64,000 nt of DNA, from NCBI RefSeq assembly GCF_009914755.1, contig NC_060931.1; one strand, written 5' to 3'. Position numbers and translations under genes: made by a program. Source of the stretch: the human T2T-CHM13v2.0 reference genome, Homo sapiens. Below the pieces are notes generated by a model that saw only the letters and a program-made list of their open reading frames with translations, had not been told where the DNA came from and did no database searches. Below are positions 41,347 to 41,651 of the stretch, in pieces. Each line of letters opens with the position of its first letter. The stretch's first letter is position 1.

Positions 41347-41651
41347 TTTTTGTTTGTTTGTTTGTTTTTGAGACAGGGTCTTGCTCTGTTACCCTGGCTG
41401 GAGTGCAATGGTGCAATTTCAACTTACTGCAACCTCTGCTTCCTGGGCTCAAGTGATCCTCCTGCTTCAGCCTCCCAAGTAGCTAGGACTACAGAAGTAT
41501 GCCACCATGCCCAGCTAAGTTTTGTATTTTATGTAGAGACAGGGTTTCACCATGTTGCCCAGGCTGGTCTCAAATTCCTGAGCTCAAGTGATCCGGCCGC
41601 CTTGGCCTCCCAGTGTGCTGGGATTACAGGCGTGAGCCACTGCACCTGGCC
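41347..41651 (-). mobile_element. AluJb-like (antisense, intron 2), hosting the candidate cassette exon
   Basis: Full dimer with (TTTG)n tail and J-type cctgggctcaagtgatcctcc. Confidence 0.93.
41377..41496 (+). other. RABGEF1: Candidate Alu-derived cassette exon (120 nt, frame-preserving, in-frame TAG at 41480-82)
   Basis: Right arm of an antisense Alu. T-rich tract and gagacag| acceptor (AG 41375-76), mutated donor AGAA|GTATGC (GT 41497-98), phase 2/2. Confidence 0.65.

What the first reader, a model, noticed from the sequence alone, without database searches (positions are those of the whole stretch)
41377..41496. Editing-gated Alu cassette exon: NMD poison exon versus a 40-aa insert splitting the Rabex-5 MIU
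Seen: the antisense Alu in intron 2 has a T-tract with gagacag| acceptor and a non-consensus GT (AGAA|GTATGC). These define exactly 120 nt, phase 2/2, so the exon fits in frame between exons 2 and 3: R60[40 protein letters not shown]61. The only stop is TAG at 41480-82. Sense Alus lie ~700 nt away on both sides (40314-40628, 42296-42462) and can pair with this arm. Known: UAG is the preferred ADAR triplet, and UAG-to-UIG (Trp) rescue of an Alu exon is described for NARF. The insertion point is inside the MIU helix (DWELAERLQREEE). From memory and unverified, a curated RABGEF1 isoform has the insert VLLCCPGW...PPKWLGLQK, which differs from this genome by two A>G changes (41391, 41481), as editing would predict. 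Inference: ADAR activity would choose between NMD and an isoform with an intact zinc finger and GEF but a broken MIU, tying dsRNA editing to ubiquitin-dependent Rab5 activation.
Basis: partly seen in the sequence, partly recalled or inferred. Interest (0 to 1): 0.88.

Follow-up and report, generated by a model that had tools for sequence, protein, structure and literature searches.

The report
Alu cassette exon in RABGEF1 intron 2
An old Alu repeat inside the RABGEF1 gene is occasionally spliced in as an extra exon that carries a stop codon, which is an ordinary kind of unproductive splicing; the idea that RNA editing rescues it into a new protein form is possible but unsupported.

Summary
The sequence features are real. 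An antisense Alu right arm has a G-interrupted T-tract, a gagacag|G acceptor at 41377 and a GAA|gtatgc donor after 41496. That gives 120 nt in phase with exons 2 and 3, with a single in-frame TAG at 41480-82.

Most of this is generic Alu anatomy. Of 22 same-orientation Alus in the window, 15 have a 120-nt homologous interval and 19 keep the TAG.

RefSeq lists the acceptor but ends the exon at 41513 (137 nt, GC donor). That form shifts the frame, so editing could not rescue it.

A full sense Alu 729 nt upstream pairs with 266 of 299 Alu positions in the whole-intron fold. A41481 sits in a paired UAG, a good ADAR context.

No isoform with this insert was found: 0 of 120 RABGEF1 cluster representatives and 0 RABGEF1 entries among the 120 best matches to the exon peptide. 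No paper was found either. RABGEF1's documented coding Alu exon lies elsewhere, after residue 198.

Verdict: an annotated, stop-bearing Alu exon. Editing rescue of the NARF type is an untested hypothesis.

The parts
41377..41496 (+). It is in phase with exons 2 and 3.
   Evidence: It is not in the RefSeq exon list supplied for the window.
41377..41513 (+). RefSeq-annotated alternative exon: 137 nt, same acceptor, GC donor CCA|gctaag. It shifts the frame.
   Evidence: Hub annotation; splice-site flanks.
41345..41376 (+). Polypyrimidine tract derived from the Alu poly(A) tail, interrupted by G (longest T run 5), followed by the gagacag acceptor.
   Evidence: Zarnack 2013 passages on U-tract length and hnRNP C.
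41480..41482 (+). The only in-frame stop (TAG). A41481 is predicted to pair with U40487 inside a 13-bp helix.
41391..41391 (+). A in a TAC (Tyr) codon. It is unpaired in all three folds, facing A40577 in the upstream partner or C42424 in the downstream partner. A>G here would give Cys.
41353..41651 (-). Full dimeric Alu, antisense to RABGEF1. The exon comes from its right arm.
40314..40628 (+). Full-length sense Alu, the main predicted dsRNA partner.
42297..42462 (+). Single sense Alu arm, a weaker partner (72% complementary).
39570..39765 (+). RABGEF1 exon 2. It encodes residues 1-59 plus two bases of codon 60: the A20 zinc finger and the first half of the MIU helix.
42913..43079 (+). RABGEF1 exon 3. 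It starts with the last base of codon 60, then LQREEEE...

Best explanation
This is an ordinary exonised right arm of an old antisense Alu in RABGEF1 intron 2.

Shown from sequence: the copy has an AG at the usual Alu acceptor. Its upstream U-tract is broken by G residues. It also carries weak donors.

Inferred: the broken U-tract should bind the Alu-exon repressor hnRNP C poorly and let U2AF65 in. A small share of transcripts would then include the exon.

Annotated: the acceptor is used, and the annotated exon is 137 nt.

Inferred: every included form meets the TAG at 41480-82. The 137-nt form is also out of frame. The included transcripts are therefore unproductive and should be degraded by NMD. 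This is a minor leak or dosage drain rather than a protein-coding isoform.

Predicted: the Alu forms a duplex of about 300 bp with the sense Alu 729 nt upstream. This makes it a likely ADAR substrate and hides both splice sites. Editing probably occurs on this intron and may alter inclusion. A productive, editing-rescued protein is at most a rare by-product.
For: - Acceptor, donors, length and stop.
- RefSeq lists 41377-41513 as an exon of other transcripts (hub table). 137 nt is not a multiple of 3.
- The longest T run upstream of the acceptor is 5, against a median of 10.5 in 22 same-orientation Alus.
- Zarnack 2013 (PMC3629564, passages) states that the strongest hnRNP C sites are U-tracts of 9 or more. 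It also states that established Alu exons tend to have shorter, disrupted tracts, and that exonised Alus mostly give NMD targets or non-functional proteins.
- The TAG is generic Alu sequence, kept in 19 of 22 copies.
- No protein carries the insert: 0 of 120 RABGEF1 representatives, and none among the 120 listed matches to the exon peptide.
- RABGEF1 is absent from the 3 held supplementary files of a tissue-wide recoding survey (PMC8897444).
Against: - By a crude count against CAG|GTRAGT, the unannotated GT donor at 41496 matches 5 of 9 positions. That equals the constitutive exon 2 donor. The annotated GC donor matches 3 of 9 (strings, counted by hand). The in-frame 120-nt form may therefore well exist.
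- A41481 has a favourable predicted ADAR context: a UAG triplet, an A:U pair and a long duplex.
- One paper names RABGEF1 among the most heavily edited genes (PMC12838065, passage).
- No RNA-seq, EST, GENCODE or UniProt data could be consulted.
- The protein database shows only cluster representatives at 90% identity, so a human isoform could be hidden as a cluster member.
- The recoding survey may have looked only at annotated coding sequence, so it could have missed this site.
Confidence: 0.7

Rival explanations
1. The 120-nt form is the relevant exon. ADAR editing of UAG (41481) to UIG reads as Trp. Editing level then decides between NMD and a Rabex-5 isoform with a 40-aa Alu insert that splits the MIU helix but leaves the zinc finger and GEF domain intact.
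For: - The 120-nt exon is in phase and has a single stop.
- The GT donor is no worse than the exon 2 donor.
- A41481 lies in a paired UAG within a predicted duplex covering 266 of 299 Alu positions.
- NARF is a precedent for UAG-to-Trp rescue in an Alu exon with a nearby inverted Alu (PMC1852406).
- The junction lies inside the solved Ub-binding fragment.
Against: - The only annotated form is the frame-shifting 137-nt exon.
- No isoform with the insert was found.
- The two 'edited' residues are common in generic Alu-derived peptides.
- Editing at a single Alu site is usually low (general knowledge). The rescued share would be inclusion times use of the GT donor times editing level.
- RABGEF1 is not in the recoding survey supplements.
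Confidence: 0.12
2. A regulated poison exon. Inclusion is tuned by hnRNP C, ADAR binding or dsRNA formation to set RABGEF1 mRNA dosage. No protein from the included form is needed.
For: - The PTC-bearing exon has an annotated acceptor.
- The broken U-tract suggests escape from hnRNP C.
- The duplex covers both splice sites, so dsRNA-binding proteins or editing could change inclusion.
- A41375 in the acceptor AG is paired. A41496 at donor position -1 is unpaired. If read as G, the first change would destroy the acceptor and the second would strengthen the donor (inference).
Against: - There is no evidence of regulated or substantial inclusion.
- RABGEF1 is absent from the held supplementary files of two Alu-exon studies: Attig 2016, 3 files, and Zarnack 2013, 2 files.
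- Alu exons are primate-specific, and most are low-level noise (general knowledge).
Confidence: 0.15
3. 41377-41513 is not an internal cassette exon. It is instead the last exon of a truncated transcript model, or an alignment artefact on this assembly. The poor GC 'donor' would then not be a real splice site.
For: - CCA|gctaag matches the donor consensus at only 3 of 9 positions.
- The hub list mixes first exons with internal ones. For example, 23562-23757 has no AG before it.
Against: - RefSeq also annotates another GC donor in this gene, at 39726.
- There is no poly(A) signal or A-rich stretch after 41513.
Confidence: 0.1

Closest known systems
NARF exon 8, the editing-dependent Alu exon (Lev-Maor et al. 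2007, PMC1852406; abstract, section 6 and passages read)
   Same: - It is an antisense Alu exon with an inverted Alu partner nearby.
- An in-frame UAG inside the Alu becomes Trp if edited.
- The insert is about 40-46 aa.
   Different: - In NARF the acceptor itself (AA) needs editing, and seven cDNAs support the exon with G at the stop site. The partner Alu is 25 nt away.
- Here the acceptor is a genomic AG, the partner is 729 nt away, and no cDNA or editing evidence was seen.
- The annotated form here is out of frame.
hnRNP C-repressed and escaped Alu exons (Zarnack et al. 2013, PMC3629564; passages read)
   Same: - It is a right-arm antisense Alu exon that uses the poly(U)-gagacag acceptor.
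- A short, interrupted U-tract is what the paper reports for established Alu exons.
- The expected fate is NMD.
   Different: RABGEF1 does not occur in the 2 supplementary files held for that paper. hnRNP C binding here is inferred from tract length only.
The other RABGEF1 Alu exon, after residue 198 (Lin et al. 2016, PMC4731929, supplementary file 2)
   Same: It is in the same gene and is also an Alu-derived in-frame insert of about 39-40 aa.
   Different: - That exon lies beyond the end of the window.
- It has no stop and has junction-peptide support.
- It appears in Pan paniscus protein models P0145 and P0137.
- The exon studied here has a stop and none of that support.
Annotated alternative GC donor of exon 2 at 39726
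   Same: It also changes the MIU while leaving the zinc finger and GEF domain in frame.
   Different: It deletes residues 48-60 (39 nt) by an ordinary alternative donor. It involves no Alu, no stop and no editing.

Membership tests
Antisense right-arm Alu cassette exon | The exon lies in an Alu that is antisense to the gene. | tested here: met
   SRP-like matches on the minus strand at 41368-41515 and 41534-41650. 68 Alu matches in the window.
Antisense right-arm Alu cassette exon | The acceptor is formed by the poly(U) tract plus an AG in the right arm. | tested here: met
   tttgtttgtttttgagacag|G. RefSeq uses the same start, 41377 (hub table).
Antisense right-arm Alu cassette exon | A usable donor lies inside the Alu. 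| tested here: inconclusive
   The GT donor at 41497 matches 5 of 9 consensus positions. The annotated GC donor at 41514 matches 3 of 9. Which one is used could not be seen.
Antisense right-arm Alu cassette exon | Transcript evidence of inclusion. | not testable with these tools
   The only evidence is the supplied RefSeq table (exon 41377-41513). No reads or cDNAs were available.
Editing-rescued Alu exon (NARF type) | An oppositely oriented Alu lies within about 2 kb and forms dsRNA. | tested here: met
   77-82% complementary arms with a 729-nt gap. Cofold energy is -465.6 kcal/mol. 266 of 299 Alu positions pair with it in the whole-intron fold. These are predictions only.
Editing-rescued Alu exon (NARF type) | The exon keeps the reading frame once the stop is removed. 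| tested here: inconclusive
   Met for 41377-41496 (120 nt). Not met for the annotated 41377-41513 (137 nt).
Editing-rescued Alu exon (NARF type) | A>G differences between cDNA and genome at the stop codon. | not testable with these tools
   No cDNA, EST or RNA-seq data. RABGEF1 is absent from the held supplements of the recoding survey.
Editing-rescued Alu exon (NARF type) | A protein or cDNA isoform containing the insert. | tested here: inconclusive
   0 of 120 RABGEF1 representatives. No RABGEF1 protein among the 120 listed matches to the exon peptide. 0 papers for the peptide strings. Only cluster representatives are visible.
NMD-targeting (poison) exon | A premature stop lies more than about 50-55 nt upstream of the last exon junction. 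| tested here: met
   The TAG at 41480-82 is followed by at least the junctions into exons at 42913, 51361 and 63195 (hub table). The rule itself is established knowledge.
NMD-targeting (poison) exon | Included transcripts rise when NMD is blocked, and inclusion is regulated or conserved. | not testable with these tools
   No expression data.
Insert inside the Rabex-5 MIU | The junction lies within the ubiquitin-binding helix. | tested here: met
   The junction is at R60/L61 in ...[16 protein letters not shown]. Solved fragments 2c7m/2c7n (74 aa) and 2fid/2fif (70 aa) match residues 1-59 and 8-59 of exon 2 and extend past it. The exact helix limits and contact residues are recalled, not tested.

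The most novel reading that the evidence does not exclude
A share of transcripts uses the unannotated GT donor at 41496. In these, A41481 is edited at high efficiency within the Alu-Alu duplex, as in NARF. The result would be a primate-specific Rabex-5 isoform whose MIU helix is split by 40 Alu-derived residues. ADAR activity would then set the balance between decay and a form of the Rab5 exchange factor with weaker ubiquitin binding.
Probability: 0.1. Interest if true: 0.6.

Novelty: already known. Interest (0 to 1): 0.25.

Why it matters
As it stands, this is one more stop-bearing Alu exon. It is already in RefSeq and has little consequence beyond a small loss of productive RABGEF1 mRNA.

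If the editing-rescue reading were true, it would be a second clear case after NARF of an Alu exon whose coding use depends on ADAR. It would also link dsRNA editing to ubiquitin-dependent recruitment of a Rab5 activator.

The question is cheap to settle from public RNA-seq and long-read data.

Tried and rejected
It was repeated over the annotated exon with X at the stop and returned only generic Alu-derived proteins.
- Paper searches:
  - RABGEF1 + exonization: 0 papers.
  - RABGEF1 + 'Alu exon': 2 papers held, 1 listed, irrelevant by title and abstract start.
  - RABGEF1 + Alu + editing: 12 papers, 9 listed. Passages of two were read. One reports an edQTL site at another place in the gene. 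The other names RABGEF1 among highly edited genes.
  - RABGEF1 + ADAR: 11 papers, nothing on this exon in the listing.
  - RABGEF1 + Alu as whole words: 9 papers, nothing relevant in the listing.
  - RABGEF1 + nonsense-mediated decay + exon: 3 papers. One was read in passages and holds gene lists only.
  - Three peptide strings: 0 papers.
- Supplements with no RABGEF1:
  - Attig 2016: 3 files, by gene name and by Ensembl id.
  - Zarnack 2013: 2 files.
  - Gabay 2022: 3 files.
- Park 2021 supplements: 12 of 15 files were searched. They held three RABGEF1 mentions, none at the hg19 place I estimated for this Alu. That estimate rests on a recalled gene end, so the result carries little weight.
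- Two structural papers on Rabex-5 were not held. Helix limits and contact residues of the MIU are therefore recalled.
- I looked for the Lin 2016 Alu exon inside the last 724 nt of the window. No candidate fitted the reported junction peptide.
- The odd sequence after R60 in Mandrillus protein P0122 does not map to the window beyond exon 2.
- No structure or complex prediction of the insert-bearing protein was attempted. It would need a joined sequence that the window does not encode contiguously.

Full report
**What is in the sequence**

The stretch 41353-41651 is a full dimeric Alu lying antisense to RABGEF1. Rfam gives sub-threshold 7SL/SRP matches on the minus strand at 41368-41515 and 41534-41650. 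On the plus strand it gives matches for the neighbours at 40315-40431, 40453-40600 and 42300-42447. blastn with this copy finds 68 Alu matches in the window.

The Alu's former poly(A) tail reads on the gene strand as ctttttgtttgtttgtttgtttttgagacag|G, which places an AG acceptor before 41377. A GT follows 41496 (GAA|gtatgcca). Together these define a 120-nt interval.

Exon 2 carries 179 coding bases (39587-39765) and so ends two bases into codon 60. The first base of the interval completes an Arg codon. Translation of 41378-41494 gives [38 protein letters not shown]. The last two bases plus the first base of exon 3 give Lys, followed by Leu61. The only stop is TAG at 41480-82.

**How special is it?**

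I aligned the 22 Alu copies in the window that have the same orientation and cover this arm, ours included.

- The homologous interval is exactly 120 nt in 15 of 22.
- The TAG is kept in 19 of 22.
- An AG sits at the acceptor in 12 of 22.
- A GT sits at the 41497 site in 4 of 22.
- Both that AG and that GT occur in 2 of 22: this copy and the one near 55013.

The length, the frame-specific single stop and the TAG itself are thus properties of the Alu family, not of this locus.

What is less common here is the broken U-tract. Its longest T run is 5. Only 4 of 22 copies have a run of 5 or less, the median is 10.5, and the copy near 55013 has a run of 26.

Zarnack et al. 2013 (PMC3629564, passages) report three relevant points:
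- hnRNP C binds best to continuous U-tracts of nine or more and blocks U2AF65 there.
- Established Alu exons tend to have shorter, disrupted tracts.
- Exonised Alus mostly yield NMD targets or non-functional proteins.

From this I infer that this copy has escaped repression. That fits the fact that RefSeq annotates an exon starting at 41377.

**What the annotation adds**

The supplied RefSeq table lists 41377-41513, not 41377-41496. That exon is 137 nt long with a GC donor (CCA|gctaag).

It contains the same TAG and also shifts the frame. Reading on by hand, a further stop follows in exon 3. Removing the TAG by editing would not make this form productive.

I counted matches to the textbook donor consensus CAG|GTRAGT by hand, using the strings:

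| Donor | Matches of 9 |
|---|---|
| Unannotated GT donor at 41496 | 5 |
| Annotated GC donor at 41513 | 3 |
| Exon 2 | 5 |
| Exon 3 | 6 |
| Exon 4 | 7 |
| Exon 5 | 7 |

The 120-nt form is therefore plausible on sequence grounds. Nothing I could consult attests it.

**dsRNA and editing context**

The full sense Alu at 40314-40628 is 77-82% complementary to this Alu, with a 729-nt gap. The downstream partner at 42297-42462 is a single arm at 72% complementarity.

Cofolding gives -465.6 kcal/mol with the upstream partner and -267.8 kcal/mol with the downstream one. In a minimum-energy fold of the whole intron (3147 nt, -1052.9 kcal/mol), 266 of 299 Alu positions pair with the upstream Alu and 33 are unpaired. 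None pairs with the downstream arm.

Predicted states of the key adenosines are as follows.
- **A41481** pairs with U40487 inside a 13-bp helix and sits in a UAG triplet.
- **A41391** (TAC) is unpaired, facing A40577 or C42424.
- **UAG triplets:** of the 24 adenosines in the 120-nt interval, two lie in UAG triplets, 41481 and 41485.
- **A41375**, in the acceptor AG, is paired.
- **A41496**, at donor position -1, is unpaired.

Read as G, A41375 would destroy the acceptor and A41496 would strengthen the donor. That is inference.

These are predictions from thermodynamic folding, and any inverted Alu pair at this distance would look similar. One paper names RABGEF1 among the most heavily edited genes (PMC12838065, passage). 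Another describes an edQTL site elsewhere in the gene (PMC7942016, passages). Neither concerns this exon.

**The recalled isoform**

I searched about 5.8 billion clustered proteins with the annotated exon read with X at the stop. The result was 163 hits among 251 candidates, of which 120 were listed. All listed hits are generic Alu-derived proteins, and none is named RABGEF1.

I then searched with exon 2. That gave 580 hits, with 120 representatives listed. Their state at the exon 2/3 junction is as follows.
- 109 of 120 run straight from R60 into LQ(R/K)EE.
- 8 of 120, none a human or ape entry by source name, carry unrelated inserts there.
- 3 of 120 diverge after R60 or differ at the motif.
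- 0 of 120 contain any of five short words from the Alu exon peptide.

Ten primate representatives were also read by eye.

Two Pan paniscus models (P0145, P0137) do carry an Alu insert, but after MQTRGK at residue 198. This is the exon for which Lin et al. 2016 list a junction peptide (PMC4731929, supplementary file 2). It lies beyond the window end.

Among the 120 generic Alu-derived proteins, CCPGW occurs in 34 and CYPGW in 22. W at the stop position occurs 6 times. A remembered string with Cys and Trp at the two positions could therefore be a blend of generic Alu peptides with the other RABGEF1 Alu exon.

This is not proof of absence. Only representatives of 90% clusters are visible, and UniProt, GENCODE and cDNA records were out of reach. 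The three peptide strings occur in no held paper. RABGEF1 is absent from the three held supplementary files of a tissue-wide recoding survey (PMC8897444). That survey may have considered annotated coding sequence only.

**Protein context**

Exon 2 matches residues 1-59 of the solved Rabex-5 ubiquitin-binding fragments (2c7m/2c7n, 74 aa) and residues 8-59 of 2fid/2fif (70 aa). The junction falls in ...[16 protein letters not shown].

Reviews and later papers describe tandem A20 zinc-finger and MIU motifs at this N-terminus that help recruit Rabex-5 to endosomes (PMC4454180, PMC4370504, PMC5824887, passages). An in-frame 40-aa insert would therefore interrupt that helix. Its exact limits and contact residues I know only from recall.

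RefSeq already annotates a simpler route to an altered MIU. The alternative GC donor at 39726 removes 39 nt, residues 48-60, in frame.

**Conclusion**

The best reading, at about 0.7, is an ordinary, already annotated, stop-bearing Alu cassette exon. It escaped hnRNP C repression through a decayed U-tract, and its included transcripts are unproductive.

The editing-gated coding switch has a real precedent in NARF (PMC1852406: abstract, section 6 and passages) and a favourable predicted structure. It also needs an unannotated donor, efficient editing at one site, and an isoform that I could not find. I put it near 0.1.

Public junction counts, and A>G calls in exon-including reads, would settle it.

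Noticed in passing
window 39727-39765: RefSeq lists an alternative exon 2 ending at 39726 with a GC donor (CAG|gcagaagc). It removes 39 nt in frame, residues 48-60. That deletes the first half of the MIU helix without any Alu or editing.
   Followed up: partly
window 7653-7905 (exons 7670-8332 and 7670-8466): A second antisense Alu supplies the start of annotated upstream exons (ttttttttgagacag|GAT). By a rough offset based on a recalled gene end, the published edQTL editing site chr7:66205046 (hg19) may fall in this Alu.
   Followed up: no
beyond window end (>64000); proteins P0145, P0137: Another RABGEF1 Alu exon inserts 39 aa after MQTRGK (residue 198). It has junction-peptide support in Lin 2016 supplementary file 2 and appears in Pan paniscus models.
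   Followed up: partly
protein P0132 (Macaca fascicularis), junction of exons ending 51527 and starting 63195: A macaque model carries a 38-aa insert that resembles a sense-strand Alu translation. It lies after MHYKR, at the exon 4/5 junction.
   Followed up: no
proteins P0147, P0185, P0188, P0189, P0199, P0210, P0216, P0240: 8 of 120 RABGEF1 cluster representatives carry unrelated inserts of 10-45 aa exactly at the R60/L61 junction. By their source names none is a human or ape entry. They may be gene-model artefacts or independent cassette exons in the same intron.
   Followed up: no
window 38190-38478 and 38840-39128: Two more antisense Alus lie upstream of exon 2. They could compete for the sense Alu at 40314-40628. 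Such pairing would loop out exon 2, with possible exon skipping or back-splicing. This is inference only.
   Followed up: no
window 55013-55331: This is the only other same-orientation Alu in the window with both the AG acceptor and a GT at the homologous donor site. It has a 26-T tract and two in-frame stops, and no exon is annotated there.
   Followed up: no
window 40451-40502, 41390-41449, 41466-41517, 41539-41597, 42298-42349: Sub-threshold Rfam matches to mir-1268, mir-3135 and mir-1285 all lie inside the Alus. They are presumably generic Alu similarity.
   Followed up: no
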